A DNA stretch of 64,000 nucleotides from Azolla caroliniana. Its lineage: Eukaryota; Plantae; Polypodiophyta. The DNA lies in NCBI GenBank assembly GCA_043228905.1, contig JBHGNT010000021.1, positions 434,001 to 498,000 of the forward strand, written 5' to 3'. The notes under the pieces are model-generated. The model ran no database searches. It saw only the letters and a program-made list of their open reading frames with translations, and was not told the origin of the DNA. Made by a program: the position numbers and the translations under genes. Shown one piece after another: positions 12,756 through 62,986 of the stretch (within the stretch, counting starts at the first letter, position 1; every line of letters begins with the position of its first letter).

Positions 12756-12779
12756 TGAAGACGAACAAAACACCCACCA

Positions 12780-13285: not shown

Positions 13286-13318
13286 CTCCCCGCACTGTGG
13301 ATCGAGAGTATCACAGCC

Positions 13319-16300
13319 ATGTCTGGCCTCTGCTTCTGCTTCTCTCGTGGTTCCTCTACAGAGAAGCTAAGCTCTGTTATACCTTCATCTTCTACTGTGG
13401 CAACAAAATTGCCTTTCCAGTCATCAGAACATTCTGGTTCATCAAAGTCATTGAGCCCACTACTAGTAGAGCTCTTCACATCACAAGGATGCAGCTCATG
13501 CCCCCCTGCAGATCTAATTATTTCAAAGCTTGGTCAACAAAGAGGAGAAAAAGATGAAAGAGGAGAATCGGAGAAAGAAAGAGAAATAGATAGAAAACGA
13601 GAAGGGGAAGATGGAGATGTAAAAAATAGAGACAAAGAAGATTCTAGAAGCAATGAACCTGACCAGATCTCGAAGCTTCCACCTGTAATTGCATTGGCTT
13701 ATCATGTGGATTATTGGGATTATCTAGGATGGAAGGACCCCTTTGCATGCAATCGATGGAGTGGTAGGCATCGAAGCTATGGTGAAGCTCTCCAACAAGA
13801 TAGTATCTATACGCCAGAGGTGGTTGTCCAGGGTCGTTTGCATTGTATTGGCTCGAACGTGGAATTGGTTTCCGATCTCATTGAATCTGCCCCGAGATTC
13901 CCTGCTCTGGATGTTCGGGTAAGAATGCTTCTGCTGGAGCCTTTTGTTTTTGCTGGTTTTTAGTTTTGTATTGGATATGGCGTTAATCAGGATGATAGTG
14001 ATCATCACCCAAAGGAAATGCAATGCATCTATGTGAGTGATAAGCTACAATGATGATGGTATTATGGATGATGTCTATGTTCACGATGGTGATCAGGATA
14101 ATAATGGTGACCCAAAGGAAATGCAATGTATCTAGTGATAGAGAGGATGATGATGAGAAGATGTATTGGCATTCACAGGGCGCCAACTTAATCTCTGGGA
14201 TCAACTATAATTAGAAGTACTCGCCCCAACTTTTAATACCAAAATCTGCCCATGGGACAATTGATTACAGTAATGGGATATGTACTCAATCATTGAAAAT
14301 AAAAAATAAAAGAAACATAAATAAAAAAGTTCTAGTGTGGTACAAAAAATGTTATGACGTGTAACATGTTCTATAAAGAAAAAGGCTTTGTCATAAGACT
14401 ATTGTTTCATTTCAATCCAAGTCCCTCGAAAAAGGGGGGGGGGGGTGTTGACAGGTTTCGATGTAGGTGTGCCCCATGGTTTCAATGTAAATTGTATCTT
14501 GACCATGATAGCTTCTAGGCGGGGTGAGTCCCGTTTCTTATCTTCTCATATCCTTCTACATGACAACGAGTGGCTTTGAAGCCCGGTATCTGAGGGCATT
14601 TGGTTGCTCTTTGGTTTTTTGCGTTAGTGAGGGAGAGGCTGAGTGGTGTAGTGTGTCCACGTTCATCGTTCCCCTTGTACTTGAAAAAATTCAATGGTTA
14701 TGAGTTCATGGCTATTAGAAAGGTTATAGTAAACATTTTGTAGCTTAGTCTCTCTATGTTGTATTAGCTCTAAGATATATGTACGTAGTGTCTTTATGTT
14801 TGAGGTATCTACTAATTGGGAGAGGGTGGGATAGATTCGAACTTTGCATGTAAAATGGTACTCATCCTTAGCAATGGGCACGGTTTCGGCTCAAACCGAA
14901 CCGAACCGTTAAACCGTGGCTTAACGGTTTATCGGTTCAAAATTAAATAATGAGTTTGGTTTGGTTTAAAGAATGAAAGTTCGGTTTGGTTTCGGTTCGG
15001 TTCGGTTTAACATTTATCGGTTTATCGGTTTATCGGTTTATCGGTTTTATCGGTTTAACGGTTTCTATTAATTTGGTTCGGTTTATAGGTTTATAGGTTC
15101 TTACCCTAGCCCTAAATTTTCAATTTTATAAATTATACCCTTCCTAAATTTTCTATTTTATAAATTATACCCTTCTTATTTTTACTATGGACCTAATACT
15201 AGTTAGTAGTAGTAAGTACATACTACATATTACAAACTATAGGGTATGATACAGACAGTCTACAGACACAACTATCGAACAGACACACTGTGTATCTACT
15301 GTTAACTACAGACAGACACAATTATCGAACAGAAACACAGGCGGCATTGTGCAGGCTGAGGCGGCAACCACCAATCACCACTTCATTGCTCTTCAGACTC
15401 CAAACTCTCCATAACACAGGTATGAATCATGATCCATAACACAGGCTGAGACACTCCAAACTTTTTTTATAGATGTGTGGTTTGCATATATGAGAATATG
15501 GGTATGTGAGTTAACGTGTGTGCATACATGTGAGAGAAGAGAGATTTGTATGTAAGCAAATATGAGATCAATACGAGTATGTGAGTTTATGCTCGATTGA
15601 ATAATCAGTAATATATGTATATGTATGTGTTTGTGAGCGAGTATCTTGAACTGGTATAATGTTTAAATCTATACTGGACTCCTGCAACTATGTTCTCTTT
15701 CGAATACTTGTTGCTTATCTCGAATAGCTTCAACTATGTTCTCTTTCGATATTTCTGTGATCTGTTTTGACATGATCTTAATGTACACCAATGCTCGTTA
15801 GATTTTCATTGAAAGGAATAATATTTCTTGGAGTTCTCAGTCCACGCTATCTGACTGAAGGAGTATCAATTGTATATGCTGAAATTAGAACACCTGCAAA
15901 TACACCTGCAAGAACATAACTAACTTAGAAAGACTGTATCATTATATTATAAAGTACTGAAAGTCTTCACCATTCATATCAAACATTGATGTTCATTGCT
16001 CATTTTCTGAGCCATTAAGATTGCATGTTTATTGTTTATTTTCTGGGTGGAGTAAACATAGATGATCATTATTTATCTTCAGAGTAGAGTAAATATGGTT
16101 ATCCACTGTTTATCTGGTTATTGATGTTAACATAAATGCACATTCTATATTTTGTGAGTAGAAAAACATGGATATCGAGTATTTATGTGGTGAATGGAGC
16201 ATTTTAAACATGGACGTCCATTGTTTATTTTGTGAGCAGAGTAAACAATAACATCTATTATTTACCTTATGAGCATTGGGGGCATGAGTGTCAGTTGTTT

Positions 16301-19300
16301 ATCCTGTCAGAAAATATGGATGTCCATGGATTATCCTGTTAATGAGAGTAAACATGGGTATCCATTGTTTATTTAATGATTGGAGTAAAGTAAACATGGA
16401 TGTCCAATTTATCTGGTGATTAAGGTAAACATGGGTGCGCGGTCATGGGTTAACTTGACAACTTGGATTTGCATCGTTTATCTTGTGAGTAGAGTAAACG
16501 GTGGTGTCCATTGTTTATCTGGTTAGTGAAGTTAACACGAATGTTTTATTGAGTGATTAGAGTAATGGGCATGTCTATCTTTCTATGTTTGCCATTGGAC
16601 ATAATGGTCGTTTTACTGTTCTTAGCTAACTTAGCAAACTTTCTACTTCATTTATTTTTCTCATTATAATGTACATATTTGAAATGTGCTAATTGAGTTA
16701 ATTGAATTTTATAGGACACCATAAAATGGAATCATCATCTCAAACTGATGCTGCAATGAACTCATCTTCATTTGATGTTAGTCGTGGGTCAACAAGTAGC
16801 TCAAGAAAAAGGCTACGCACATCATGGACAGATGCTCACATCATATTTTATATGGATAATGGCACACCTCGACGACGATGCCATCATTGCCATGTTTGTT
16901 GGTCTTCTACAACATCCACAGGCACTATAGCCAAACATTTAGCAGAAAAGCATCGTTTATCAAGCGACCCAGACCAAAATTCAGGTATATCACATCACAT
17001 TCAATCTTCAATTGAGTCAGCTAGAGTATCTCATGTTTTAGAGAAGAAAATTGATGCTGCCATCGTGAAGTATATTGTGAAGGGAACATTGCCCCATGCA
17101 CATGTGGAATCACCTGAATTTAAGGAATTCATGCAACAAATTGTACCTGGATATCAAGTAAAGTCAAGACGTACAATTAAGCGTTCTATCCTAGAAATGT
17201 ATGTGGTGTTGCGTCGTCAGGTGATAGATTTGCTATCAAAATGCCAATCAAGATTTTCCATAACATTTGATGGTTGGTCAAATAGTAGTTTGAAGGGCTT
17301 CTACTCAGTGACACTTCATTGGGTATGTCATGAGACAGCAAGGTCAAGGTCAATGTTATTGGATTTTGTGCATGTATTTCCAGGTGTTGGATCAGGGAAG
17401 CGTTGTGCACATGCCCTTTTTGCTCGACTTCGATCCTTTGATATTTCTAGTCGACTCTTAGCTACAATTTTTGATGGAGCGAGTGATGCACAAGTAGCTG
17501 CAAAAGAGTTGAGCATGTTGTTACAAGATGAGCATGGTAAGGAAATTTTGGCTCCATCACATATGTTAAGATGTATGGTTCACACTTTTCAGTTGGGTAT
17601 CAAGGCAGCATTAGAGGTTATCTCACCCTCAACAGAAAAGTTGAGAACAGTGCTCCATACTATTAGATCTAGCAAGGTTCGAAGGGAAGTGTTTAGGAAG
17701 TATGCTAGGATGGTTGAGCATCATGAAAGGGAACCCCCAAGGCTCGATGTTGTTACAAGATGGAATTCTACCTTGGAAATGTTTAGGCAATCTATCAAAG
17801 ATAAAGATGTATTGAACTTTACAATTTCAGATTTAACAATATCAAGTGATTTCAATGGTAATGTCTTGACCAGAGAAGATTGGAGTCACATACATGCCAT
17901 GGCGGAATGGCTAGATACACCGGCCGAGGTTTCTACTTTTTTGGGAGGCTCAAAATATCCTACATTATCACTAGCATCGCTAGCATATAATTGTTTACTA
18001 AATCATTGCAATCAATTTTTAGATTCTTCGCTTCCAGGATCATCTAGATTTACACAAGAGGTGCTTCAAAGAGCATCTGAGAACTGCTTGCAATATTTAA
18101 TTAAGTATCAAGAATCGTTAAAGTCTATTCCATCTCGCATAGCAATGTTTCTTGATCCCAGGTAATGCTTACCTTTATATCGTACAATTATCATCATGAT
18201 TTCTGATTTTTTATTTGAGTTTAAAACCGTTTTATTTGTTTGATAGATTGCCTCTTCCAAATAATCATACAGAAAGAGAGTTAGATATTAAGTTGGTTGA
18301 AAGCATGATTGAGTCCCACTATCACTCGTTCTCGAGTGATGTTGAACCACGTTCGGCTTCAACCACAATACATGAAAATGATAAGAACTCTAAAATTTGG
18401 ACGTTAATGGGTGTAAATAATAAAAGTCTTATTTCCGATTCACAGTCAGAAATTCAGCACTTTATGAGACTTCCTTCGGCTAGCACGGATAAGGATCCTT
18501 TACAATGGTGGAATGAAAATAAATCGGCAATGCCTTCACTATATAGGATGGCATGTGATTACCTCAGTATACCAGCATCATCAGTACCTGCTGAAGAGGC
18601 TAATTCGGCAGCAAAAATGACCTTTGATAATAGGATAAAACTACATTCATGCACTTTCAAAGCTGAAATGTGCGTTCGATCATGGATGAATGTTTTAAAA
18701 GAATGTAATGTTCAAATGTTAGATAATTTTCACATCAGTTATGCGGAACTAACAATGAATTTGGATGATCTTGTTGCTGAAGACGAGGTAATAGATTACA
18801 TATCGCATGATAGTCAAAGGAAGATTAAGGTATGCATACTTGTTACTTGGTTGTTTTTTGTTTGAGTCTTTACTTAAAGTTTTATTAATAATTACTTACT
18901 TGTTTTTATGTATTTTATATGTACAGGAATCATGTTGATTTTTGACATGTTAACGACAATAGTGGTTGCAATTGGAGATCTTCAAAGTCATTGTAATTTT
19001 TATTACATGTTGTTTACTATTTTGTTTTTAGTCGATTCTTTAAATTTGTTATTATGAATTACTTAATTCTTTTGTATATTTTATGCTTTCAGAAATCCCT
19101 TATTCAAATATTGGAAACAAAAAGCTGGATTAAGTCCTATGGTCCATGGATTTGGAAAATTGGAACTCTATTATATGGATTGTTGTTCTTAATTGGAAAA
19201 TTGGAACTCTACTGAATGGAAATTTGGAACTCTATTGTATGGAATTTCGGAACTCTATTGTATGGAATTTTGGAACTCTATTGTATGGAATTTTGGAACT

Positions 19301-22282
19301 CTATTGTATGGATTTTTGTTATCATTCCAAAAAACATTTATCTTTTTATGTAATATCTTATCATGTTTCACAAATTAACAATTTTCAGAAAATGTGTTGT
19401 GAATTTCTGTTATTTTATAGTGTTATAGTCTTTGATTTGGTACAATTTATTGTTTCGTGTTGGTTGGATTATGTCAAAACCAATTTGGTTTGGTTTGGTT
19501 TTGATGTTTGATACACTGGTTTGGTTTTGATTTTTGGTAAACCGGTTCGGTTTGGTTCTACATTTTACATAAACGGTTTGGTTTTAAATGGTTTGGTTTC
19601 TCATACCTATTAAACGGTTTGGTTTAAATGGTTTGGCTTAAATAGTTTGGTTTAAATGGCTTCAAATTTTTTAAATGGTTTGGTTTGGTTTTTTTTATGA
19701 ATAACCGGTTTGGTTTGGTTTGGTTTGGTTTCAAGGTCAAGAAACCGAACCGAACCGAAACCGAACCGCGCCCATTGCTACTCATCCTCTATCTCTCTAT
19801 GACATAATCTACATTTCCTTTCCTCTCGAGGAACTCCATTAGCACAACCATTTTCAATCCCAAGTTGGTGGGATGATACTCCAAGTTGTCCAAATGACAA
19901 CCCTTAATGCATTTGGTAAGAACATATCTAGATATTTTGGTCGTATAATAAATCTTAACTTAAGAGAAATGCATGAAGTGCTCTCAAAGTGTGATACTTG
20001 CATAGTCGACTACTCTCAACCCTTGTGTCCTAACTTTCTGTCTGACATTGCAATACACATGAGCTAGGTTGCATGGAAGCAATGGTTTGGATGGCAGACA
20101 ATGGGATGTGTTCTAACATGTATTCATGTGTGCGAATTTGTTGTTTGGCGAAGAATATAGATTTGGAGTTAGGTGCAACATAGATGAAGCTAGTGATGCA
20201 TCATGAAGCAAGTGTGTGGCATCCTATATTCCGAATCATTTTTCCATATCTTGCATCCAAATAGAACATAAAAATTAGCATTTATGTGTCTTTTGGATCT
20301 TTTGGAGAGAGAGAGAGGATGGCAAAAACCCATGGTTAGGAAAGGCTCTATTTTTCGGCACTTGGGGTATCCAATTGGGAATGAATGTTACGAATGGTGA
20401 ATTGATCGAATTGATGTCTAGTAAGTTAGGGTATAAGTCCATGTATTGTAAGTCACAATGTTGGCCATTGTACGTACACCTAAAGGTTGTACAATGTATT
20501 ATGGAACCATGGTATTATATTACTTGCGATTGTTGCCATGGACAAAGGCTTTGCATTTTGTTTTGCAACCTCTTTTATATTTGTTGTGGAGGCAAAGGGA
20601 TAATATGGGAATCAAATGGGTTGTGTGGAATCATCTATGAACACCTAAGCCCTTGGACTTATCTATGCATATGATGGCTCATAGATTTTCATTTTTGCAA
20701 GATGTGATCAAACTCACAATCATGGATATCTTTTATTTAATATTTTATTGAAAACAAGGTTTAATATATGGGAGGACATTGATTAAGGGTTCATGGTGGC
20801 AATTACGGAGCAAATGTATTTGACTTAGGATTCCTTGGTCTTCATGGTTCATGGCAAGAAGCTCTCTCGCTATTTGTATGGAAATCATCATCTAGTAAAG
20901 AGCATTGTAATTTAGTGCAAAAAAAGTTAATTGTGTCTTCTCGGTTATTATATTGGCCTAGAAAGGAGAGATCGTGCTCTTAGTTTAATCACATGTTTTA
21001 TTTGGGGGTTATAGAGGCGGGAGATATAATTGAGGCTCCATCTCAAAAAACTTTGGAGCTTGTTGAAGTACCTCAATTATTACGCATCTTGCCCAATGAT
21101 TGGTTTACCTTGCAACAACTACAAAATATTGCATTAATGTAAGGTTCATTACTGTTACAACCAAAAGAGAAATCGTGGTTTGATTAGTGTTTACAAGGTC
21201 ATATGCGGATTTTACAAGTGACTACTAATCTCTTGTATCAGTGTCTACTAAACTCTGAGCATAGATAGTGGCAGATCATACAACCTGGTTGGCATTTTAC
21301 ATTTCACTTGTAGCAGAGGTCTTCATTTGGAGAGTTTTGATTGGGGTTTTGCTTGTGGGATAAACTCTAAAACGATGAGAAATAGCAATGGGTAGTTGCT
21401 TCTTTTGCATTGTTCAAATGGAAGATAGTACTCATCGTTCATACAGTGCTTGATTGCTTGTTAGATTTGGAGTTATGTTTATCACATTCGGTTAGGTTTA
21501 TCACGGTTTTATTTGATGCTAAAGACAGTGGGTGTTTGCACAATTCACATAGGTCGACCCAAATTAGAGATGGAAATTGTTTTTCTACTTCTAAGATATT
21601 AGGGATTGTGTCATAATTGGGATATCCGCAATGCTTTTGTGTTTGATGGTAGGCATGGAGTCAAAAGCATGTTTGTGAAAGTTGAAGGGAGCACTGATGT
21701 GATATATTTTTTTATATGGGCAAGTGGAAATTCTTTTCTCAGTGGAGTGTTTGTCTTGCCTATATGCAATTTAACATATTCCACTACCCGTGTAGTTAGT
21801 GGGTGACCGTACTCCATTGTGACACTCATTGTAAGTAGTGGTTGTACACACATTTATTAATATAATTGGTGTTTGAGAGAGAGAGACAGAGAGAGAGATT
21901 TTATACCTTTTATCTCAATCAGGTTTCTTTCTCGAGGCCAAACCCATCAGAGCTCCAACTGACGCTAAGTGTATCCTTGAGAGTTAAGGTCGAGGGAAAT
22001 GTTGATGCAATGGTAGCCATTTTTGAGAATGGACTGGTGACAGATTGTTGCAAGGGCGAAAATAGAGGACGAGTTCTCACAAATGATCGCATTGTAAGAA
22101 GCCTAGAAAAGGTTTGCACCTTGCAAGCACCTGTAACTAAAAAGCCCACGCGGGGACAAGTTAACATTAAGCTTTGGGAAGGATATACAAAAGCTAAGTG
22201 TGGAATGGTTGTTTTCCTTCAAAATCCTTCTTCAATGGAGGTCGTTGGAGCTCAGCTTTTAGAGTTACCCAACGATGCATGA
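13319..22282 (+). CDS. DUF1223-family thioredoxin-like CxxC protein; exons 13319..13918 and 21923..22282 (319 aa), 8,004-bp intron
   Basis: Family motifs VELFTSQGCSSCPPAD, YHVDYWDYLGWKDPF, IYTP and GEN.GR.L.ND.IVR. Phase-0 donor CGG|GTAAGA and acceptor ATCAG|GTT are in frame. Confidence 0.9.
16020..16570. repeat. Degenerate array of roughly 40-50-bp units in the hAT leader intron
   Basis: GAGTAAACATGGATGTCCATTGTTTATC recurs about 10 times. Confidence 0.75.
16726..18938 (+). CDS. hAT transposase (BED finger, DDE core, dimerisation domain); exons 16726..18161, 18247..18829, 18927..18938 (about 676 aa)
   Basis: Motifs CHHC...HLAEKH, ITFDGWS, IFDGASD, CMVH, TRWNST, FLDPR and DPLQWW...YLSIPASSVPAE. 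GT-AG introns preserve the frame. Probable 5' UTR intron 15420..16714. Confidence 0.9.
19150..19312. repeat. Tandem repeat of about 22-23 bp in the hAT 3' region
   Basis: TGGAA(A/T)TTTGGAACTCTATTGTA repeated about 6 times. Confidence 0.88.

Positions 22283-34387: not shown

Positions 34388-34392
<5 letters not shown>

Positions 34393-34421
<29 letters not shown>
34393..34421. repeat. (GA)n microsatellite
   Basis: Direct dinucleotide run. Confidence 0.95.
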
Positions 34422-36627: not shown

Positions 36628-36727
36628 NNNNNNNNNNNNNNNNNNNNNNNNNNNNNNNNNNNNNNNNNNNNNNNNNNNNNNNNNNNNNNNNNNNNNNNNN
36701 NNNNNNNNNNNNNNNNNNNNNNNNNNN
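36628..36727. other. Assembly gap, 100 N (unsized scaffold join)
   Basis: Exactly 100 N. Confidence 0.99.
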
Positions 36728-47741: not shown

Positions 47742-49214
47742 ATCTAGGGGCATACCATGTACAAAGTTGTGCACAAAAGCATTGAATGTCGACGTTAGTA
47801 CTAAACTAAGTGCACGATTAGGAGAAAAGAAGAAAAACAAAACTATCTCAATTGTTTTAGGCCAAATGACCTTACCTCAATGTGAAACGGAACAACCTTT
47901 TTGTGAGAGAGTTATGAAACTAACTTTTGTGACGTGTTTGCTCTTTCTTCTTCATTTTTGGCCTAAATTTCTCTTAGATAGAATCCAGGCTTGTTGAGTA
48001 CACTCTTGTCCAAATCCACCTTTATACTTGTTTGCTAGTACGCTACTTCATTCACATCAAACATGATCACTTTCTCTATTGTAATGCATGCTTAGCACAA
48101 AGTCATAATGTGCCTTCATGTTAATGCATGTAGGATGATTCTCCATCAAGGCCAACGTGAATCATTGGGCTTGATTACCACATATAGATATCTAGGGTTT
48201 CCATATTCACATCTAAACCCACATGTAATGCGCTTCATTGACCCAATGGACAACATGGTTTTTGTTTACGAGCCCTATTCTATACAATATTATCACATGT
48301 CTTGACCTTGTAGGGCTCGCTTTTTTGCATGTTTGAGGACAAAAAGCTAAACCTCAACCTCATGTGTGTTTGAGCATGTATGCCACACATAATTGATGTG
48401 TTTTACTCTACATGAAGCTTTCTCTTTAAAACTACCCTCAAAGTATCACATATTTGACATGATATCCATTGAATTTCATTCAATGAAGAATAGGGTACTA
48501 CTACGAGGGACATTTTAATGCAAACTTCATCTTGATTGTCCTAAAGTCTAGATATCTCCATACATAACCATTTCACCCTCCTTTGTTGCTTCAATCATTT
48601 GTGAGTTGTTATTGTTATGACATGTAAGTTGAGCACGCATCAAGGCATCATCTAAGTATATATGTAGTGAGTGTGCTTCTTAAGAGTTTCTTCGACATGA
48701 TGTCTTGGAAGCAAATAATAAAGGTTATGCATCCGAAGTCATCCTTATCTATGCTCCATGCAAGTTTGTTCCAGAGGTTTGGCTTCATCTTGTGGATTCA
48801 TGTACATACACAAACGTTAATTCTAATATAGGTTGATCAATTTATCTCCACTTCACTAACTTTTTTAGACTAGAACTTAGATGTACAAGTTTCGTTAGTT
48901 ATAAATTCAGTATATTACTTCATCAGGAACTAAAATCTTTCTTCTTCTTCTTCTTCTTCTTCTTTTCCTTTTGTTAGAATTGTTAAAACAAAAGAAGCAA
49001 AAACAGGTATGCTAAGCATGATGCTTTCTGTACAAATTTTCTGAATAATGCGGAAGAGAAGCTGTGGGAAATCGAATCTGAGACCCTTCCGCCGCCCCCA
49101 AATGGATCATCATGAAGAGGTTGATAAAAGCAGCGCAGAGTTCAGCGATGATATGGATCGATTCCACTCTGCACCTCCTGCTAGATTTGGGGCCCCTTCC
49201 CAATGTTGTCCTCA

Positions 49215-50009
49215 TCAATTCCCACAGGTACAACAATTGGGGCATGGACAAGGGCCGGAGGAGCATAAGAGTGGGTATGGGTACAACGTTGTTGGGTAGT
49301 AGAGACCAGTAGGAATATACGTTGGTCCACCTATATAACATCCATTATAGTTGATACATACTCATATTTGTCAAATCTACTACCTCCATGGATTTTTTGA
49401 TTGTTTAACAAGAAAATGTCAAGCAAAACATACACAAGTTATTGATTTGTGAGCACATGCGCGTGCATTACCTGGATAGCTAGGAGATATATGATGTAGA
49501 GGTAGAGGATGATGAGGGTGATGATATAAATGAGGGGGGTGAGGATGAGGTGATGAGATTTGAACGTGTGCGGTTGTGCTCCTTGCTTGCGCCGAAGTAG
49601 GTTCTGTCAATCGTGTTGGTGGTGTTGATTGTGTCGCAACCGATGGTATTGGTGTCATTGACACTTGCGCCGGAGTAGACTCTGTTTGAGGTGGAGGCAC
49701 AGGGGGAGGAGGTGGCATTTTCTCAGGAGGCAATGGTGCAAGAGGCATCACTGCTTGTGGTGGCACCTCTACATCTCCATCTAGACACCCTCCACAACAC
49801 CTATCCACCACTCCTTTGGACCCGTAGGGAGAACCATCACCCACATGTCTACTAATGCATGCTCGTCTTATGGCCTTTGCAATGATAAGGAGGATAATTA
49901 TCGTCGTGACGACAATGATGACTCCCATTATGGCTAGTCCTGGGTCTGGGTGATGCCCCTCATGTTGTTGGGTTGCATTGTAGGAGAAATCCACATTGGT
50001 TGTAGACAT
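49215..50009 (-). CDS. Copy 2 of the TM Pro/His/Cys-rich protein; exons 50009..49472 and 49330..49215
   Basis: Identical to 147..941 except N16H. Confidence 0.75.
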
Positions 50010-53000
50010 AATGTTGCTTAATTTTTACAATCTTACTGTATAATATTCCTAGGGGAGTGGTTATTGTAAATACAATTAGAAGAAGCAAAAAGAGAAGGGT
50101 ATATATTCCCCGTCCTATTGTGTTATACCCATTTTATAATATCTCTCCTTGGTCAAAAACTTATGTTGCTTACTTTTCCTCGGTTTCTATTGAAATGTTA
50201 AATAAAGTAGGCAATCCTTGTTTATTACATTGTAGTCCTTTTTCCTACGGAAGTGGTTACTATCAATGCAACTAGAGAGAAGGAAAAATGGAAGGGCATA
50301 TGTTCCCCATTCTATTGTGGTATGTCCATTTAGTAAAAAATCTTTCCCTAGTCAAAATCAACATTCCAATTGGAATGTTAAAGAAAGGAGGCGATTGTTT
50401 TTTATTACTTTGCATTCCTTTTTCCTCCCAATTGAACAATATGGGACGCATGTTTTCCTTATTGGAGTATGTAAGTATGGTGCTTAGTCCATCCTAATAT
50501 CATCAACATGTATCATTTGTTTTTTTAACACATAATCTTGTTGTTCATATAAATAAACCATCCTTTGTCAATCTTGCTTATGCAGTTCCTTGGGTCATTA
50601 CTTTATATATATGCATGTATATTTGGACATCATCATTAAATCAACAAGATGCCAAGAGAACCAATGTCTTTTGGTTGTAATCGTAATGAGTACACGATCC
50701 CATTCCATTGAGCCATGCCCACATGGTTATATCTCATTGCAACAATTTTGTTTCTTGACATAAATTTTACCCTCTCTCCACATTTGATTGGTGATGACCA
50801 CCCTCTTTGCCAATAGACACATTTAATCTCTTACCACTACTCATTTGTAATGGAACAATTGCCTATTTTTATTACACATTCAATAGGGTTTATTTTTTTG
50901 GGCACTATTCTTTGTGAACCAAATTTATATTTTCCCTTTCATTTGAATGACATTTCTATATCCTTCCACGATGCTAAATTTCAATAACATACCCAAGAGT
51001 TTTCATCATTAAGCACAAGCATGACACATCCTGTGTTATTCCATTTACACAAATTTGTTGACTTCACTTTGTTTATGGATAATGTTTATTATTTAAATTT
51101 ACACACGTCATTTGTGAAGCCACAACCACTTGTTTATTTTTTTCTTCCCGCAACAATACATCCACCAAACACGACTCTACATTTTCCTGTTACAATGTGC
51201 TTTCACAAGGGATGATTATATCAATTTCTTGTCGCACAAACAAAAAACGTTGTTTATGTGAACTATAGTTTAACATATTGCAAAGAAGGAACATTGGTCG
51301 TTTTAATGTTCTTAGAGTTTAATGCTTGAGATGTGGGTTAGACTAAATGAACATGATTTCTCACCTCTCTAGAGTAAAGAAGCTTCTCTCCACATACATA
51401 GTTCTAATTTAATTTTATGTTATTTAATTATAGCAAACTAAGCATTCATATATGTATACATACATTAACAAGATTGTAATGGACTTCTCTCAACGTGAAA
51501 CATATGTGTTAATGATTTATCACACCCCAATAACATATTGGTTTGTGAAATATACTAGATAGAATTTGTATGAATCCTATAGATCTCATTGTTATTGACC
51601 GTCTTTTCCATACAAATCTTATCCATAAGTGTTGTCACATCAAATTGTTCAAATAGTTGAAATGCCAAAGTTGGCCTTGATTGATTGCAAGGTGTTTTCC
51701 AATTACAATTCAAGTTCATATGTAAATGTTTTCAACAAAGTCATTGTTATCAATTCCATAAAAACAACAATAGAATGACCAAATATGAAACTAAACAATG
51801 AAGTAAATCAAACAATAACGATATGAAAATCAAACTCCCAAACCAAGAATAACACAACTATACGAACACTCTTTGGCATTATATTGCATTATGAAATTTG
51901 TCCTAAAATATTGCCATCGTTGATTCTAATGACAACATTGTTGAACCCAAATAACATGTTGACTAAATATTGAAATACCATGTTGTGTGTGTTAATATCT
52001 TGTCATGTTGTATCCTAATATTTCATTTGCATATGATTAAGTAGATCGTTCATAAATATTGAATGTGTCAAGATTCCTTTCCAATTAAGTAATGATATTT
52101 CATTTACACCATTTGGTATCTTTCCAATTAAGTAATCATATTTCATCTACAACCTTTGGTATCTTTCCAATTAAGTAATGATATTTCATTTACAACCTTA
52201 GATACCTTTCCAATTAAATATCCAATTAAGTGTTGGGATGATATTTCATTTACAACCTTTGGTATCTTTCCAATTAAGTAATGATATTTCATTTACAACC
52301 ATTGGGTAGAACGTTGCTCTAGTTATTCTTACAATCCTCTTATATGTACCATGGCTAACTTTAACCTTCAGGTAGGCTTACTATACTTGTCATGAAGTTG
52401 TTCCTACAAATTCGGGGGATTGAATCATAAGTGACGATAGGTTATTATCCAAAAACTCAAACTCACAAAACATGCCATCTTGAGAAGGTTTGATAACAAT
52501 ATCATATTTGGAATGATTATTGTTGTTGAGATATCAAGGCCATACCACACACCCTTTGGGGCACATGTACTAGACTCCACAGTAAAAATAAAATGGATGG
52601 GAAATGACTCAACTTGAATGAATTCACACATTAGCTTCATCAATGGGTTATCAATTTGAGCTACTCTAGTGGTAGCACTAAAAGGTTTAGACATGGCTTT
52701 TGGTGATTGAGGGCTCGTGTGACAAGCATATTGTTGTAAGGATGGTGGGAACTCATTGAACTAGTAAAAGTTTCAAATGGCTTCTCAACCATCCATTTCC
52801 ATGTGGACTTGAATGAATTCACACATTAGCTTCATCAATGGGTTATCAATTGGAGCTACTGTAGTGGTAGCACCAAAACGTTTAATGGCTTTGGTGTCTA
52901 AACTTTTCGGTGATTGAGGGCTTGGTGGGAACTCATTGAACTAGTAAAAGTTTCAAATGGCTTCTCAACCATCCATTTCGTATGCCCACGTGGCAATGTG

Positions 53001-54697
53001 GTGTTGAACCTCTAACATCTATTACTTACATGACAAGGAAATTAGCTTCCATTTTGTTGATACCATCAAGTGTCACACTGCTTCCATGATAAGGAATTTA
53101 TCTTCCTTTTCTTTGTTGTCCTTGGGTGTCCCGTTCATGTTGAGCAAGTGCAATTGGCTAGATTTTGTTACCCATTGCCATAAGACTTTTGGCAATCATC
53201 AACAATGTCAACATTCATTGCATCACCTTGCTACCATCATTTTGCTTTGGCCATTGGTACGAACCAATTCAAGGGATTTTTGAAGGCCTCTTGTTGGGTT
53301 GATAAAACGCTCAAATTGTTGTTGAAGTGCAATCAATGCCTCAAAAGTTGCCATTAACACCAATTCTTGATCGTAAAGCCACTCCTTTGTATGTTTTTCA
53401 TCCATTAACCGTAGAGGTCCCTCGTAACTATCAATGAAGGAGGTAGGATGTTAAAGAAAAACTAATGATCAAGCAAAAATTATATATTTAAGGAAATAAA
53501 TAGATTAAGGGCACATTACCTCCAAATCACCCCCCAATCCAAGGAATTACAATGGATCATAAACACCATCGTTATTCTATACCATCGAATATCACCTAAG
53601 ATCATACCTTATGTGTAAATCCACAAAACATTATCATTAACAAGAGCCTCACCATACCACTGGTGTCTGAACAAGGTTTTGATAGAGGTATTCCTCTTCC
53701 CTCGTGACATTAGCTACTTCTTAGTTTATATTTGCACCCTAGGTTTGCATGCCATTGCATATACTTGACATGTGTCCAAATCTTATGTGATTTACCTGAA
53801 TCTTAATATACCCATAAAACCATTAATATTTTGGATCTTATATAAATATTACAATTCTTCACGTAAGGGCCTTCAAAACCTAATTTTTAACAACGTTAAC
53901 CCCTCCTACAACTCTCTTGAATTTGTCCTTTGCCTATTGTAGTTGATGGTGAATGAATTTTTTCTCCACTAGTTGGAATTTGTCCTTTGCCTATTGTAGT
54001 TGCTGGGGAAAAGCAACGAGTTGTTTCTCCACTAGTTAGGGTCATTGTTTTAGATATGAGTGATTGTATATTTACAACTATTTGGTTTGATCACTTACCA
54101 TGGTTACAAGTTACAACAATGATATAGTTCATTATTTTCCCATCCAACATTACCTTTACAAGCCAAGGCACTTAGAGGCATCTTGAAGCTTATATTCCTT
54201 TGTAGCCACCTTGACGCTTAGCTCCTTCACGAGTCTAGTGATTTGGAGTAACTTTTCATTTAATTACCATTGTAAGAGAAACTAATACAATTGATAATTG
54301 TGTTTTTTCTTCACTTCATTAACCACATGTGCCCAACCATATTTAAGTCCCTTATAGTTTTGTTTGAGCTTTGTTGTTGTTGGTTCACATGTTTTTTTTA
54401 TCCATATTTATCAACCCCATGTGACAGACAATTAATGACTAAGTGTTGAGAATCGAGATATCAAGCTCAATTATGATTGTTTAGTTAACCCATTGTTAAG
54501 ATCCTTGTAGTTGTAAATATTTTGTAGTTGCCTTCATGTAGGTCAACTCCATAAGTGTTCGATGAAATAAGATGTTGTGCTTTGAATCAATGTTAGATAT
54601 TTTCTAGACATCCTATTTTCTCACTCATTCATTGTAGAATCTTGTTACCATTGCATGTCCACTCACACGTGGTTCTTTTGAAATCGATGTTTAATAG

Positions 54698-56204
54698 TGT
54701 GAAATGCACATAAGAGATAAAAAACCAGTCTACTTAGCTTCTTACTTCTTAATCAATTTATAGTTGATACAACGGAACCCATTTGGGTTGGCTTGGTTAA
54801 ACAGGGTTTGCTAAAAGGGTGGGTCAACTTGAGCACACACATCCTGAAAAGGGTGAGCTAAAAGGGTGGCACAAAGGAACACATGCACACCACATTTCCC
54901 CCCTGCGAGAAACAAGAGATTGAGGGGCATGAACAAGAACAGGACAAGAACAAGAACAAGAACAAGAACAAGAACAATGGCTTGTCGAAGGAGGGGGAGC
55001 ATCTGATAGCAGGTTTCAAATGGAAATCCATCGTTGATTTTAGTGCGAGGCGAGGGTTACACCCATAGAGTGCTTGAAAAGGGTTGATTTATGCAACCAT
55101 CTCGTGTTTGAGGGTCTTGTTGAGGCGTTCGGTGAAGATGGCGTGGGGATGTAAACATCTATGGACACGTAGTTGAGGTGCAACGACGTTGAGGACATCC
55201 CCATGGAACTGTTGGCCTTGATAGTTGGACGGGGCTAATGACGAAAAACGAGTTATCAATCGGCGAATATAGATCAATCACTCCTGTGGACTAAGGGCCA
55301 CCTAGACTTTGCTGAGGTGGGGGACAGGAGGGCTATCGTGTCATCTCGGAGGGGGATCGAGGAAAGATCATATGGTGGCGAAGATAAATCGCTCCTGTGG
55401 ACTGAGGACCACCTGGACTTTGCTGAGGTGGGGGACAGGAGGGTTATCGTGTCGAAGGGGGATTGAGGAAAGATCATATGGCGGCGAGAGATGAATCGCA
55501 CCTGTGGACTGAGGTGGGGGACAGGAGGGCTATCGTGTCAGAGGGGGATCGGGGAAAAGATCATTTGGCAAAGAAAGATCAATCACTCTTGTGGTCTAAG
55601 GGCCACCTGGACTTGGTTGAGGTGGGGGTCAGGAGGGCTATCGTGTAGGAGGGGGATCAGAGAAACTCATGGGACAAGAAGTTAATGGGCAACCTAAGGT
55701 GAGGGGGAAGAATTGGTGGGGCAAGACATAAAAGTGGTGTGAGAAAGTGAGAGTGTCTAAGGTGAAGGTGTAGTGGGCTTACGTGCTAGAGAGGTATAGA
55801 TGGCGATCGCCAAAAACGGACTTGGATGGAGGAAGTGGTGGATATCGGGAGGCCTAACTAGTGAACTAAGGTGGTGCTAATAGAAGAGATACTACTACAA
55901 GAGACTAACAAGAGTGTCGGTGATGGTGGTGAGGGTGATGCTACTTACGAAGCGGAAGAGGTAGATGCTTAAATGTGGGGGACTGGTACCCCGCATCTCC
56001 ACCAATATGTGAAATGCACATAAGAGATCAAAAATTAGTCTACTTAGCTTCTTACTTCTTAATCAATTTATAGTTGATACAACGGAACCCATTTGGGTTG
56101 GCTTGGCAAAACAGGGTGTGCTAAAAGGGTGGGTCAACTTGAGCACACGCATCCTAAAAAGGGTGAGCTAAAAGGGTGGCACAAAGGAACACATGCACAC
56201 CACA
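54698..56204 (-). mobile_element. Copy 2 of the tRNA-Ala-primed mini LTR element
   Basis: Same LTRs, PBS, PPT and flanks at +49,068. Confidence 0.9.
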
Positions 56205-59200
56205 AAGGAACACGTGGTTCTTTTGAAATTGATGTTTAATAGCATTTGCTCTTTTGTGCTTATTTTCTCAAGTATTAATCATCAACTATTATTGTATGAT
56301 TATTGTTTAATTATTTCTCTCTCTTAATTAAATTTTCCTCTCATATGCACACAAGCACAGATTAACACATATGCTTCCACTATGTAATCACACACATGTG
56401 ACATGATTAAGAATCACTCACATAACTAGTACTAGTTACACATATGATTAGTACCTAATTAGTATACAATTACATACAAAATAGTATATATTGGGTAATG
56501 TACCAAGTATTTATCTAGTTTGTTTTGAAGTGCCATGTTGAAAAGAGGATCTCAAATTGTCTTATTCATTTGCAACACAGCAAGAAAAGAAGATGGAAAG
56601 AAAAACAAGTATAGATAAGGAGATAAGAAAGGGAAACACAATTAAATCACCAAGCAAGGAATGTCCCTTTTAGGGCATTATTCATTTCCTATTTAGGACT
56701 TGGTAATTTATCAAGGCATGGTCACTATTGTTGTAGTTATGTGTCCCGACTTTAAATATAGTCAATCCTTAAACTATCTAGTTGTTAAACCTTTTCTATA
56801 CAAACTACACTATGTTATCCAATTCCTAAACATGAAACTTGTTATAACTTCTTATGTACATACCTTTACCTATATTGCCATATGGCACATGATTGTTAGT
56901 TGTTGCTTTGCTTTGGCTCACTTGAGTTGGTCTCTAGCCTAACTAGGAATGGATTTGCCAACATGGTAGTATGGTTTTGGCCAAACACCATTCATCAAGG
57001 AAGTGGCCCATGCTATGATGAAAAGGAAGACAATAAGCACTCATAGCAAGCATAGGTTGTAATAGTATCTGAAAACATATTTTTGGGGCATCCCAAAGCC
57101 GGGTTATTTATCTCATGCATTGGTGCCTAACTACTCGAGTACATGATATGACTCCGCACAAGTGATCGTATGGAAAGCAATCAAATTTGTATCACTTAAA
57201 TGTTTTGATAACATCTATGCATGCATATTCTATGAATTCTAAACAAACTAGTTGTTGCAAAGTCAAGAAACGTGTATTTTTTTAGCTATTTCCTTAGGGT
57301 TTTAAAGTTCACATATGTCACTTCAACGAATCAACATTGTGGTATGCTCCAAAGTTGGTCACAACTACAACAATCGAGGACATCATTGTTGTCAAACCAA
57401 ACCTTATAATGTGTGACTAAGTGACTATCATGAGCTATTGAGTGACCACAACACATTGAGGGATAGTAGAGACCTTGACAATATCTCTTCATCCCATCCC
57501 ATTTGTCTTGATAGAGGAAACATAAAGATGATCTATAGAGCTCCATTGATTTGACAAAACAACTTCATCCGTTGATGATGAGATCGATGAGCATATCAAG
57601 AGGATACTTACTATGCAAATTTTATACTCCAACGATACATTTGAATCACATTTTTTCGAAGGGATTAACATGACTCATACCTTGGAGCGTTGCACTTCCA
57701 AGTATCACTACCAAGTCTTGAAGGGTAGCTCTTTCCATGGGTGGGCTAACCAAGGAATTAGTGGATGTCACTCCCCAATGGTTGGGCCCTCTATTTTTTT
57801 CCACTTTCTACCTTTCGGGTCTGCCACATCACCACAACAAGTGTGTTAAAGTCCACCCTCGTAATTAAGTGATGTGAGATATCTTGATAGAATGGCCACT
57901 TTCCCATTGTGATAGATTGGTTCAAACTTCGATGCAAAATACGCATAGAATATCTTACATAAACCAAGCATGGTTCATTGTTAATATGAAATCAAAATCA
58001 TGTAATAATTTAATTACACAAAATTTGGTTAAAAACTTAACACTACTTTTGAAGTGCAAGAAGTCTAATTCAAAAGGAAATTGTAAAGACTAAATAAAAG
58101 GAAGAACTTAACATTTTTTTTGTATTTCAAATATGTTATATTATTCTAATTATTGTAATTGTACATATCAACATTTCATCATTTGTGGGTTGCATTACAA
58201 ATTTAGTTATGTGAGAGTATGCTTCATCACTATTTTATGGGATACTTGTTTCTTCATTGGAATATTTCAAATGCATATGTATTAATAAGATTGTTTGGCT
58301 CTTGTTCGATCCAGATTCCAAACCATGATCTAATGACTCATCCAATATTTAATTGGAAGAGACCACCATGATATTTGATGTGAGTGCCAATGTTGGATCA
58401 TGATTCATAAATGATTTGTTGTATCAAGAGACATACAATAGCAATTCGAATGTTTTGAATGTCAATATCGGTATCGTAAATGAAAACCTCATGAATTCAA
58501 TTACACAAATAATTTCATTAACTCTACCCCTCTCGATTGTCATGTGAGAAGTTTTGTCAAGAAGGGAAAAATATAAAACTGAAATCCATAGAGGATATCA
58601 AAGGTTCTAATGATTGTATTGGTACCGATATATAATCGACAAGAAGGTCAAGTACGCACATTTGGCGCAATATTTCAAATTTGTCTTGATAAGGCTCTTT
58701 GACATCCACCTATTAGTCATAACATAATGGCTAATAGCATAATACCATCATCCATGAATGAAATAATATGTTTGAAACAAGTATATGCTAATGCAGAATT
58801 AGAGATTCATGGCACATAAATGATTTGCCGTATCAAGAGACATGCAATAGCAATTCAAATGTTTTGAATGTCAATATCGGTATCATAAATGAAAACCTCA
58901 TGAATTCAATTACACAAATAATTTCATTAACTCTACCCCTCTCGATTGTCGTGTGAGAAGTTTTGTCAAGAAGGGAAAATATAAAACTGAAATCCATAGA
59001 TGATATCAAAGGTTCTAATGATTGTATTGGTACCGATATATAATCGACAAGAAGGTCAAGTACGCACATTTGGTGCAATATTTCAAATTTGTCTTGATAA
59101 GGCTCTTTGACATCCACCTATTAGTCATAACATAATGGCTAATAGCATAATACCATCATCCATGAATGAAATAATATGTTTGAAACAAGTATATGTTAAT

Positions 59201-62200
59201 GCAGAATTAGAGATTCATGGCACACCTAAATTTTCTTCTCATTAGAGTGTTGGTGGGCAGTCATTAAGTCTATATCCTATGTACACACGCTATCAATGTA
59301 AATGCAAACAACTACATAAAATTAAACATGGAGCCAAAAACCGTAAATGTTGAGGTGGAAATTTAATATTAATCAAGTTTTGTTAGTATTCCCCTTTCAC
59401 TCACATTGCAAGAAAACAATATAGACGTTGATATGAAGAAAACGGTTGATGTGCCTCGCAAAGTAACAATACAAAAATCATCATCAAATCTATTACGTGT
59501 GAAGTTTAGAATTTTGATGAAATAATTTGGTGGATCTAAAAGCATTAATTTATGGAGACATCCAAAGTCTCTTCTATGATGTGTGAACTCATGACAAAAG
59601 CGGTGGTTGTTTCGTGCATGTGCAATGCACAAAGGAAAACATTAAGTCCCTTTCGAAGGTAGGTGTGTCAAATATAGAGAAAAATAAACAACCAATGCAA
59701 TAAACAACAATTGTTTGGTTTGTTCAAATGTATGTATGTACATCTTATGAGTAGTGTTTTTGCATGACGTATAAGCCAACAATGTCCAACGAGATAGTGA
59801 TGATCCCTCTACTTGAAAACCCATGGGTGAAACCCCTATACTTTCATTTCCAAATAAGACGCAATCCCCATCACTATCAACTCAAGTATCTAATACATAG
59901 TTATCAACCACTTCACTTTCCTACTACCAATTTTTGGAACAATGTGTGACCCACCATTACCTACTCCTCCACCCCCCCTCCCCCACCCAAACTTAAAATA
60001 TGTGCCTTTCAAATCCCTATAAGGACATGCAACGCTAGATCTAATCATCGCAACTACTTTTCAACAACATGCCCCTAATTTAGAATATCATTCTAGGATG
60101 TTGTGGTAAACACAATCCAAATTTAAAGGGAGGAGTCCGAGGAGAAATAATAAGTATCCAATTTACACATCTCCAAACATGATTTATGACTTTTGGAGTG
60201 ATACCTCGACGTGAAACAACCGTCAACCATTATATTACACGCAGGTAGTGACAATACTCTATGGGATATCAAGGTAAACCTACCATGATAGTGATAAGTG
60301 ATGGATAATTATGGTTAAGCTAGTGAGAGAGGGGTATGAATCACGATGTAAACATAACTATTGCATGCATGCCCATATTCCATATTCAAAGCATGTTTAT
60401 TTGAGTTGAATACTAACCCCATCAAACGTGGTTGAATACTAATCCCATCAAATGTGGTGATAACGATCTACATAATAGTGATATTTCAAGGTCGTGATGG
60501 GTGATGTATGACAAGGACTTTTGTCTAAGGTTTTCAATTCATGGTAGAGAACTTGACGACTATTGCTAATATGAACAAGTTATTGATCATGATTCAATGC
60601 CCAATGCTAGTTTAAATAATTGTATGCAGGTATTGCCATCACTCATCACTAAAGGACACATTTGTGAGTCGAAAATGTGTTCCTCCCTCTTCATCGATGT
60701 GTGGCCACCCTAAGGTTTAGGTTTATGCCATAGCCCTCTCGATTAGCAATTGACTATCTAGGGCTAATGTAATTGCTTTAGCTAATCCACTTACTTTAGC
60801 CATTCCACATGCTCACAACAACAATATGATGAAAAGAGACAATCATCACGTGCACATTATGATTTGATGGAGAATGTCACAAGTCATCGATTTATATGTG
60901 GGTGTTAACAACAATTGTGTAGCTTGTCCTAGAGTAACCATGCCCCTTTACGACATAATGAAATTGTCTTCTCGAGTGATTGAGAGGTTTCCATATGCCC
61001 ACCACTCTTCCTAGGGTGAAAAGACGTGTCATCACCCATAGAAGTGGGCTCCCACAAAACATCACACACTCTTTTTGCATTAATTTTCTCATCTGTTTCA
61101 GTGCAAGAGGGAGACAATAAAGGGTCATGCGTTCAATCCCCTACACTACGTAGTTGGGGCATAAAGGGATTTGGAAGAGTCATTCATGTAGTCACCCACC
61201 CAAGAATATTTGAATTTAGAAGAGTCATTCATGTACCCACCCACCTAGGATGGATTTGAACCCAGGTGGGGTGTGCATGGCACCATTTCATGTCCCTCCC
61301 TAAGATCAAATCTTACATCTAACATCTCTCTTTCTCTCTATTCTTCACTTTAACAAGGTTTGAACCATTTCATGTCCCTCCCTAAGATCAAATCTTACAT
61401 CTAACATCTCTCTTTCTCTCTATTCTTCACTTTAACAAGGTTCGAACCATTTCATGTCCCTCCCTAAGATCAAATCTTACATCTAACATCTCTGAATTCT
61501 TCTCTTTTAACAAGGTTTGAACCATTTCATGTCCCATCCCTAAGACCACCAAATCTTACATCTAACATCTCTCAATTATTCTCTTTTAACAAGGTTTGAA
61601 CCATTTAATGTCCCTCCTGAAGACCAAATCTTACATCTAACATCTCTCTTTCTCTCTATTCTTCACTTTCATGTCCCTCCCTAAGATCAAATCTTACATC
61701 TAACATCTCTGAATTCTTCTCTTTTAACAAGGTTTGAACCATTTCATGTCCCTCCCTAAGACCAAATCTTCCATCTAACATCCCTCTTTCTCTCTATTCT
61801 TCCCCTTAACAAGGTCTGAACTTTGAAGACGAACAAAACACCCACCACTCCATATCTCTGGCTTTTAGGGCTTGAAGAGCACACCCTGCCTCTGACATGT
61901 CTTTTTTAGGGCTCGAGAACAAACCCTACCTCTGATATTTAGGGTTTTGGGACAATGTCCGTATTCTGCTTTTAGGGTTTCCGTAAACACTCACATCTAC
62001 AGGTTTGAGGAAATTCATCTCTAATGTTTAGGAACTTGACAGAACTGGCATCCCTGATTCTAGGACGTCGGAGAAAATCCATATCTGTTTTTAGCGTTTA
62101 AGGAAGAATCATTTCTTGTTTTAGCATTGCTCGGAAAACTCGTCTTTGATTTTAGGGTTTTGGTAGGAACATCTCCGATTCTAGGGTTGTAGAAAGAACT

Positions 62201-62386
62201 CATCGCTGAATTTTAGCATTTGAGATAAAGCCCTTCCTTTATGGTTTGAGACTAAACTGTCTCTGATTTCAGCTTTGAAGAAAAACTCGTCTTCGATTTT
62301 AGGGTTTGATAAAAAACTCCATCTGTGATCTTTTTCAAGTTTAGGGAGGAAATCTCCCCGCACTGTGGATCGAGAGTATCACAGCC

Positions 62387-62986
62387 ATGTCTGGCCTCTG
62401 CTTCTGCTTCTCTCGTGGTTCCTCTACAGAGAAGCTAAGCTCTGTTATACCTTCATCTTCTACTGTGGCAACAAAATTGCCTTTCCAGTCATCAGAACAT
62501 TCTGGTTCATCAAAGTCATTGAGCCCACTACTAGTAGAGCTCTTCACATCACAAGGATGCAGCTCATGCCCCCCTGCAGATCTAATTATTTCAAAGCTTG
62601 GTCAACAAAGAGGAGAAAAAGATGAAAGAGGAGAATCGGAGAAAGAAAGAGAAATAGATAGAAAACGAGAAGGGGAAGATGGAGATGTAAAAAATAGAGA
62701 CAAAGAAGATTCTAGAAGCAATGAACCTGACCAGATCTCGAAGCTTCCACCTGTAATTGCATTGGCTTATCATGTGGATTATTGGGATTATCTAGGATGG
62801 AAGGACCCCTTTGCATGCAATCGATGGAGTGGTAGGCATCGAAGCTATGGTGAAGCTCTCCAACAAGATAGTATCTATACGCCAGAGGTGGTTGTCCAGG
62901 GTCGTTTGCATTGTATTGGCTCGAACGTGGAATTGGTTTCCGATCTCATTGAATCTGCCCCGAGATTCCCTGCTCTGGATGTTCGG
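62387..62986 (+). CDS. Copy 2 of DUF1223 gene, exon 1; exon 2 is beyond the window
   Basis: Identical translation and donor; the intron lacks the hAT. Confidence 0.88.

What the first reader, a model, noticed from the sequence alone, without database searches (positions are those of the whole stretch)
14861..19788. Intact autonomous-looking hAT caught just after jumping: filled site in copy 1, footprint-free empty site in copy 2
Seen: the element has 17-bp TIRs, a perfect 8-bp TSD (CTCATCCT) and a stop-free spliced transposase of about 676 aa. The duplicate has one CTCATCCT at 63930..63937 with no footprint. Known: hAT elements make 8-bp TSDs and excision usually leaves footprints. Inference: the insertion postdates the split of two roughly 99.9% identical copies, so this is a candidate currently active element and a possible tagging tool in this lineage.
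Basis: partly seen in the sequence, partly recalled or inferred. Interest (0 to 1): 0.85.

Follow-up and report, generated by a model that had tools for sequence, protein, structure and literature searches.

The report
Young fern hAT, one allele only
An intact-looking cut-and-paste jumping gene of the hAT type sits in an intron of a gene of a plant, likely a fern, and the nearby 'empty copy' is likely the other parental chromosome laid beside it by the assembly, so this is likely a young insertion on one chromosome and not a jump caught in the act.

Summary
The anatomy is real: a 4,912-bp element (14869-19780) with 17-bp TIRs (16/17 matched), a perfect 8-bp TSD and a stop-free, predicted-spliced 676-aa hAT transposase with all five Hermes catalytic residues. 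It lies in the intron of a DUF1223 gene whose best named relatives are fern genes. The clean empty site at 63930 is real. In other samples this segment has single-copy contig depth, so the 'duplicate' is most likely the second allele (false duplication). No contig bridged the filled junction in 4 of 4 runs. The 2 runs covering the flank continue into non-element letters, so the insertion is polymorphic and the empty state ancestral. The subfamily is young (0 differences over about 1.1 kb, several copies, many other sites, a deletion derivative). The 10 flank SNPs allow an age up to tens of thousands of years (rate assumed); splicing and present mobility are untested. The transposase belongs to a hAT clade (E-x-A-N-S/FKAEMC) with Marchantia, Plasmodiophora, Achlya and lamprey members, for which my searches found no name. 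A modestly interesting new hAT member and tool candidate.

The parts
14861..14868 (+). left 8-bp target site duplication
14869..14885 (+). left TIR, 17 bp, begins TAGCA (16/17 match to right TIR)
14881..15093 (+). left subterminal cluster of AACCG/CGGTT/GGTTT motifs, likely BED-finger binding sites (inferred)
15420..16714 (+). predicted 5' leader intron (GT..AG) holding degenerate internal repeats; most of it (15543-16639) is exact in multi-copy contigs of other samples
   Evidence: splicing not observed
16726..18161 (+). transposase coding exon 1: BED-like C52/C55/H71/H76, D182, D250, C283xxH286, R345-W346
18247..18829 (+). transposase coding exon 2: catalytic E595, PF05699 Dimer_Tnp_hAT (E 4.6e-18), FKAEMC motif
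18927..18938 (+). predicted coding exon 3 (3 residues and stop); weakest part of the model
   Evidence: GT..AG only
19477..19768 (+). right subterminal GGTTT/AACCG cluster
19764..19780 (-). right TIR
19781..19788 (+). right 8-bp target site duplication
13319..13918 (+). host DUF1223 gene exon 1 (identical in copy 2)
   Evidence: RNA cover in a related species
21923..22282 (+). host DUF1223 gene exon 2; predicted spliced product 319 aa, 53-59% to four named fern proteins
14447..21850 (.). approximate span of a high-copy repeat (about 2.5 kb without the hAT) in the host intron, into which the hAT inserted; LTR-like start (purine run then TGTTG) is my inference
   Evidence: contig depth in the hundreds to thousands on both flanks
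36628..36727 (.). 100-N assembly gap between the two copies
49069..64000 (+). second copy of 1-14868 plus the downstream flank, likely the other allele
63930..63937 (+). empty target site, no footprint

Best explanation
A 4.9-kb hAT transposon with intact ends and a predicted intact 676-residue transposase sits in an intron of a likely fern gene, and it is likely a young insertion on one of two alleles that the assembly likely placed in tandem across a gap. Mechanism, inferred from Hermes-type hATs: a transposase from this copy or a near-identical sister binds the subterminal AACCG/GGTTT clusters through its BED finger and the TIR tips through its core. It cuts with D182/D250/E595 and joins the ends across an 8-bp stagger, which produced the TSD. 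The target was an older high-copy repeat inside the DUF1223 intron, enlarging the intron from 3,084 to 8,004 bp. The 4.9-kb difference likely kept the two haplotype contigs from merging. The empty copy is the never-filled allele, not an excision product. The subfamily has spread recently (several near-identical copies, many other sites, an internal-deletion derivative). Whether it moves today is untested.
For: Shown: TSD, TIRs, ORF, empty site, and a 100-N gap between the copies. The profile of 74 relatives hits Hermes at E 1e-48, and the predicted fold's top 10 matches are all Hermes. Contigs inside the 'duplicated' segment have depth 13-20 in X3 and 10 in X9. Junction contigs at other loci have 9.5-16.8 in X3 (a 7,731-bp contig at 16.8) and 8.6-10 in X9, so the segment is not doubled there. 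No record bridges 14868|14869 in 4 of 4 runs. In the 2 that cover the flank (X3, organism A; X9, organism B) the flank contig matches to 14868 (no other letters) and has 4 more letters that do not fit the element, and summed depth over 14812-14863 equals that one record. Element-interior contigs with 0 differences have depth 57 in X1 and 146-161 in X3, against 13-20 for the locus. X3 has 63 contigs with other flanks before 14869. X1 has a 15041-to-19517 joint. A gap between duplicates on one scaffold is a listed mark of false duplication (PMC9516828 passages).
Against: The reads of the assembled individual were not identified, so the direct test (half depth, spanning reads) was not run, and neither end of the duplicated unit is in the window. 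Contig depth is a rough proxy that the tool says is no copy number. Contigs show presence, not absence. X1 and X10 did not cover the flank (2 of 4 uninformative). The 4 extra letters were not printed, so 'empty allele' there is inferred. A private tandem duplication made by unequal crossing-over between two haplotypes would look the same in my data. Neither transposase intron was seen spliced.
Confidence: 0.72

Rival explanations
1. One reading: a real tandem segmental duplication of about 49 kb in this lineage, with the hAT inserted into one copy afterwards.
For: Both copies are on one scaffold in the same orientation, 49,068 bp apart. Near-identical tandem repeats also break contigs and leave gaps (general knowledge).
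Against: The segment has single-copy depth in X3 and X9, so the duplication would have to be private while already carrying 10 SNPs. The gap lies in the 29-kb interval where the junction must be.
Confidence: 0.13
2. The insertion is de novo or somatic in the sequenced plant or culture (truly caught after jumping), on one of two pre-existing haplotypes.
For: The filled junction was not seen in 4 of 4 other runs. There is no substitution in the 2,493 bp left of the site between the alleles. About 1.1-1.3 kb of the element is identical to multi-copy contigs in three runs. Apparent copy number differs between X1 and X3.
Against: Position 15230 differs from all subfamily-depth contigs in X1, X3 and X5, and K410 is R in 11 of 11 close relatives. 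Either the copy has aged or the donor is a private variant. Only 2 informative samples were available.
Confidence: 0.2
3. The copy is not autonomous in practice (silenced, mis-spliced or weakened) and was mobilised in trans by a sister copy.
For: Transposase bins had depth of at most 1.24 in the one raw RNA run laid, against 13-19 on host exons (different species, 90% likeness, about 12% of the run read). The residue after the catalytic E is E, where non-fern clade members mostly have R.
Against: That E-E pair is the family norm: PAEEANS in 47 of 74 exon-2 relatives, and an E-E pair in 54 of 74, so it is no private lesion. All five Hermes-essential residues are present. The ORF is 99.4-99.8% identical to its closest relatives (P0037, P0039, P0041, P0043).
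Confidence: 0.3
4. Precise excision: the filled state is older and the empty copy lost the element cleanly.
For: The window alone cannot polarise the event.
Against: The flank runs into non-element letters in two other samples, one labelled as another organism. The target is a high-copy repeat, and contigs of X1 and X3 join across the element's place (14862 to 19830, letters between not known). hAT excision usually leaves footprints (recalled).
Confidence: 0.03

Closest known systems
Hermes (Musca domestica hAT; PDB 8EDG, 4D1Q, 6DWW, 2BW3)
   Same: Profile match at E 1e-48 over the whole length. The predicted exon-1 fold's ranks 1-10 are Hermes, TM 0.44-0.52. Equivalents of D180, D248, R318, W319 and E572 are present (PMC6027215 passage).
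   Different: Only 16-18% identity. The motif after the catalytic E is E-A-N-S, not R-T-F-S. There is an extra FKAEMC motif and a conserved acidic C-terminal tail of about 50 aa. The gene has introns.
Canonical plant hATs (Ac/Tam3 type; names and traits partly recalled)
   Same: About 4-5 kb, short TIRs, 8-bp TSD, subterminal AACCG-like repeats, spliced transposase, deletion derivatives.
   Different: No PF14372 or DUF659 hit for the window protein, although 16 of 74 aligned relatives hit PF14372. The TIR breaks the plant consensus [T/C]AGNGNNG at position 5 (PMC6027215 section 3.3). ESxFS/ERxFS-type proteins fall outside its clade. No named Ac, Tam3 or Tag1 sequence was available for the tree.
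Unnamed hAT-like proteins of Plasmodiophora brassicae (XXQ31914.1), Lampetra (XP_078720813.1), Achlya hypogyna (ACHHYP_13953) and Marchantia polymorpha (OAE19469.1 / Mp2g20130)
   Same: 33-37% identity over 624-670 aligned residues. The first three share ERANS and FKAEMC, and all fall in one 15-row group at 94/96 support within a 20-row group at 100/100.
   Different: They are database predictions, not described elements. The Marchantia protein lacks the catalytic-E segment. The fern + Marchantia pairing is weak (90/56), so neither vertical descent nor horizontal transfer is shown.
Heterotype false duplication (PMC9516828)
   Same: Near-identical copies on one scaffold, separated by an assembly gap.
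   Different: Half depth and discordant pairs in the source reads could not be tested; depth in other samples was used as a proxy.

Membership tests
hAT superfamily | 8-bp TSD | tested here: met
   criterion in PMC3942097 passage
hAT superfamily | short TIRs (10-25 bp) and length 2.5-5 kb | tested here: met
   17 bp (16/17), 4,912 bp; criterion
hAT superfamily | D, D, R-W, E at Hermes-equivalent places | tested here: met
   D182, D250, R345, W346, E595; criterion. E595 rests on the predicted splice.
hAT superfamily | CxxH motif in the insertion domain (recalled) | tested here: met
   C283 and H286, at least 90% invariant in 74 rows
hAT superfamily | C-terminal dimerisation domain PF05699 | tested here: met
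   65.2 bits against a cut-off of 21.4
hAT superfamily | Hermes-like fold | tested here: met
   exon-1 model pLDDT 88; Foldseek ranks 1-10 Hermes, E 5e-11 to 4e-9
hAT superfamily | N-terminal BED zinc finger | tested here: inconclusive
   C52/C55/H71/H76 pattern present, but no PF02892 hit at E 0.01; 17 of 74 relatives hit it
plant hAT (Ac-type) | TIR consensus [T/C]AGNGNNG | tested here: not met
   position 5 is A
plant hAT (Ac-type) | PF14372 hAT-like RNase-H domain (used here as a marker; recalled) | tested here: not met
Ac / Buster / Tip families | phylogenetic placement against named members | not testable with these tools
   no named reference transposases were returned as usable proteins; the trees hold mostly unnamed rows
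currently active autonomous element | insertion polymorphism | tested here: met
   filled junction in 0 of 4 runs; non-element continuation in the 2 of 4 with flank cover
currently active autonomous element | spliced transposase mRNA | tested here: inconclusive
   one RNA run of a related species; depth at most 1.24 on the ORF, no junction among the rows shown
currently active autonomous element | excision or new insertions in progeny or an assay | not testable with these tools
   needs bench work or parent-offspring reads
heterotype false duplication | gap between duplicates on the same scaffold | tested here: met
   criterion
heterotype false duplication | half depth and discordant pairs in the source reads | not testable with these tools
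   source reads not identified; proxy: single-copy depth in X3 and X9

The most novel reading that the evidence does not exclude
A presently mobile autonomous hAT in a fern, inserted de novo in the sequenced plant. It would be the first working member of an unnamed hAT clade (E-x-A-N-S/FKAEMC, non-consensus TIR) that also holds liverwort, protist, oomycete and lamprey sequences, and it would give ferns a native tagging system with ready-made non-autonomous partners.
Probability: 0.2. Interest if true: 0.62.

Novelty: new member of a known kind. Interest (0 to 1): 0.3.

Why it matters
Young polymorphic hAT insertions are common in plants, and filled/empty pairs across gaps are a known assembly signature, so the headline reading is ordinary. 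Two things keep some value. First, my searches listed no active DNA transposon described from a fern, and this family has an intact gene, near-identical copies and deletion derivatives, so a tagging or gene-transfer tool can be tested directly. Second, the transposase sits in a hAT clade apart from ESxFS/ERxFS types, for which my searches found no name. The window also flags a probable false gene duplication (DUF1223 and neighbours) in this assembly.

Tried and rejected
No whole genome is held, so copies with other TSDs could not be listed; read-derived contigs were used instead. No RNA holder was listed, which is no evidence either way. RNA run X21 showed no junction for the transposase or the host intron among the rows shown (72 joint rows hidden; repeat-like letters near the host acceptor were skipped). 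X5 had locus depth of about 0-2, too low to genotype. X1 and X10 had no cover of the flank at 97%. The 10 inter-copy SNPs were not genotyped in other samples. Rejected: E596 as a private inactivating change (family-wide). Not supported: horizontal transfer into the fern, because identities to non-plants are only 33-37% and a Marchantia relative exists; my first impression of 'no plant relatives' was wrong. Single-sequence phmmer against PDB found no hAT; the profile did. The Atlas search with P0002 gave only generic BED/hAT clusters. The first IQ-TREE run timed out. Trees: FastTree on 72 rows (32 near-duplicate full-span hits dropped) and IQ-TREE LG+G4 on a hand-picked 29 rows, with no mixture model and no AU test. 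The lamprey Tel2 preprint (passages) concerns a Tol2 relative and does not mention Achlya or oomycetes; its supplements are closed and were not seen. 'Mp2g20130' gave 0 papers. The supplements of PMC6027215 (69 transposases) were not read and could bear on family placement. Earlier scan notes held nothing on this element.
Full report
Observation. The element runs 14869-19780 (4,912 bp) between two CTCATCCT octamers at 14861 and 19781. The third + strand occurrence of that octamer is at 63930. The ends are inverted repeats matching at 16 of 17 bases, followed by dense AACCG/CGGTT/GGTTT clusters at both ends. Exons 16726-18161, 18247-18829 and 18927-18938, joined at GT..AG introns of 85 and 97 bp, give 676 aa without a stop. 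The first splice is backed by homology: the Plasmodiophora protein P0104 aligns through the junction without a long gap, and the 12 full-length close relatives compared have the same 479-aa length as the unspliced exon-1 ORF. The third exon rests on splice signals alone. Bases 1-14868 recur at 49069-63937 with 10 substitutions and one 1-bp indel, and the empty site continues exactly as the right flank does.

The protein. Exon 2 hits PF05699 at E 4.6e-18; exon 1 alone hits no family in this Pfam copy. A profile of 74 relatives matches Hermes at E 1e-48. The AlphaFold model of exon 1 (pLDDT 88) has Hermes chains at ranks 1-10. The five residues that PMC6027215 lists as essential (passage) map to D182, D250, R345, W346 and E595; C283xxH286 and a BED-like C52/C55/H71/H76 pattern are present. 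The residue after E595 is E where most non-fern relatives have R. This is the family norm (PAEEANS in 47 of 74 exon-2 relatives), not a lesion. Against close unnamed ENA relatives the copy differs by 1-3 residues in exon 1 at best; K410 is R in 11 of 11 relatives.

Context. The element lies in the single predicted intron of a DUF1223 gene (13319-13918 and 21923-22282; 319 aa), in the same orientation. The best named relatives are fern proteins (Adiantum, Ceratopteris; 53-59% over the full length), so the host is inferred to be a fern; a water fern is my guess only. Both immediate flanks have contig depth in the hundreds to thousands, so the hAT is nested in an older high-copy repeat. The intron is 8,004 bp filled and 3,084 bp empty. 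In RNA run X21 of a related species the host exons have depth 13-19, with first mates on the - strand (sense +, if the library is stranded as usual). The transposase bins reach at most 1.24, which is inconclusive.

Is the duplication real? Probably not. The junction between the copies must lie between 19852 and 49068, and the window's only gap is there. If both contig ends are inside the repeat, they overlap by about 49 kb. PMC9516828 (passages) lists gaps between same-scaffold duplicates and half depth as the marks of heterotype false duplication. Source reads were not available, but other samples give a proxy. In X3, exact contigs inside the segment have depth 13, 13, 17.2, 20.3 and 18.3. 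X3 contigs at other insertion loci have 16.8 (7,731 bp), 16.3, 9.5 and 14.5. In X9 the flank contig has depth 10, against 9.6, 8.6 and 10 elsewhere. The segment is therefore not doubled in these two samples. A private tandem duplication built from two haplotypes is not excluded.

Polymorphism and polarity. I laid 14812-14923 so that any contig bridging the filled junction would be the longest piece. None bridged in 4 of 4 runs (X1, X3, X9, X10). In X3 and X9 (the latter labelled as another organism) the flank contig matches to 14868 and has 4 further letters that do not fit the element. Summed depth over 14812-14863 equals that single record (32 of 414 records were listed, but the depth table sums all). 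X1 and X10 did not cover the flank. The insertion is thus not fixed, and the empty state is ancestral by inference.

Age and family. Exact contigs from the element's non-coding interior have depth 57 in X1 (1,097 bp, 0 differences) and 146-161 in X3, about 3-4 and 8-12 times the locus depth; this is a rough proxy, and contigs hide rare variants. X3 has 63 contigs with other flanks before 14869, and X1 has a joint from 15041 to 19517 at depth 59, an internal-deletion derivative. The alleles differ by 0.067% (95% interval 0.032-0.124%), which is 22-135 thousand years at assumed rates of 1.5e-8 to 2.5e-9 per site per year. That is an upper bound if the insertion arose on this haplotype. One base (15230) differs from all subfamily-depth contigs in X1, X3 and X5. 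The data fit any age from yesterday to tens of thousands of years.

Relatives. Beyond unnamed ENA proteins at about 52-97%, the nearest full-length named sequences are from Plasmodiophora (36.7%), Lampetra (34.3%), Achlya (33.4%) and Marchantia (33.4%). In an exhaustive search of 1.84 billion representatives only 64 reached E 1e-30. These named sequences fall in one group with E-x-A-N-S and FKAEMC motifs (15 rows, 94/96, inside 20 rows at 100/100), apart from ESxFS/ERxFS types. Fern + Marchantia is weakly supported (90/56), so vertical inheritance suffices but is not proven. The TIR departs from the plant consensus at position 5, and PF14372 is not hit. Family placement among Ac, Buster and Tip (PMC3942097 passages) could not be tested. 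Searches (listings and abstract starts only) showed no description of this clade or of an active fern hAT. The library lacks most subscription papers and Repbase, so this is weak.

Verdict. This is a real, intact-looking, young hAT, likely heterozygous, in a likely false duplication (confidence 0.72). It is a new member of a known superfamily from a little-described clade. Present activity is open. Interest 0.3.

Noticed in passing
proteins P0019 (Lampetra XP_078720813.1) and P0020 (Achlya ACHHYP_13953): The lamprey and oomycete transposases are 79.6% identical over 651 aa and sister at 100/100; the lamprey cluster has 21 members. This is a candidate animal-oomycete horizontal transfer, or contamination. 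It is not mentioned in the lamprey Tel2 preprint passages.
   Followed up: partly
protein P0388 / P0245 (Marchantia Mp2g20130): The Marchantia member lacks the segment holding the catalytic E: a dead or domesticated copy, or a gene-model error. The locus name gave 0 papers.
   Followed up: partly
window 15041 to 19517 (joint in run X1): Internal-deletion derivative of about 440 bp at depth 59, a MITE-like partner of the element.
   Followed up: no
window 13918 / 16715: Splicing of host exon 1 to the element's predicted leader acceptor would be out of frame and stop after 17 codons, so the filled allele could be weakened by exon trapping.
   Followed up: partly
window 18843-18931 and 19014-19097: Intron 2 and a downstream stretch are about 72% alike; possibly a duplicated 3' UTR intron.
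   Followed up: no
window about 23000-34400, - strand: Multi-exon protein kinase gene (PF07714 on 27993-28430; STY/ACT-type is recalled). It may also be falsely duplicated beyond the window.
   Followed up: no
window 37192-40575: Long degenerate inverted repeats (37192-37963 against 40575-38750, 73-80%) with a 309-bp tandem duplicate at 99%; a foldback or MULE-like relic.
   Followed up: no
window 351-956 (-), 49419-50024 (-), 44336-44719 (-): Proline-rich, single-transmembrane-looking ORFs without a Pfam hit; 44336-44719 looks by eye like a paralogue of 351-956.
   Followed up: no
window 21383-21393 and 11531-11541 (and 60599): Isolated 10-11/11 matches to the TIR core without the element's TSD; probably chance or relics.
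   Followed up: no
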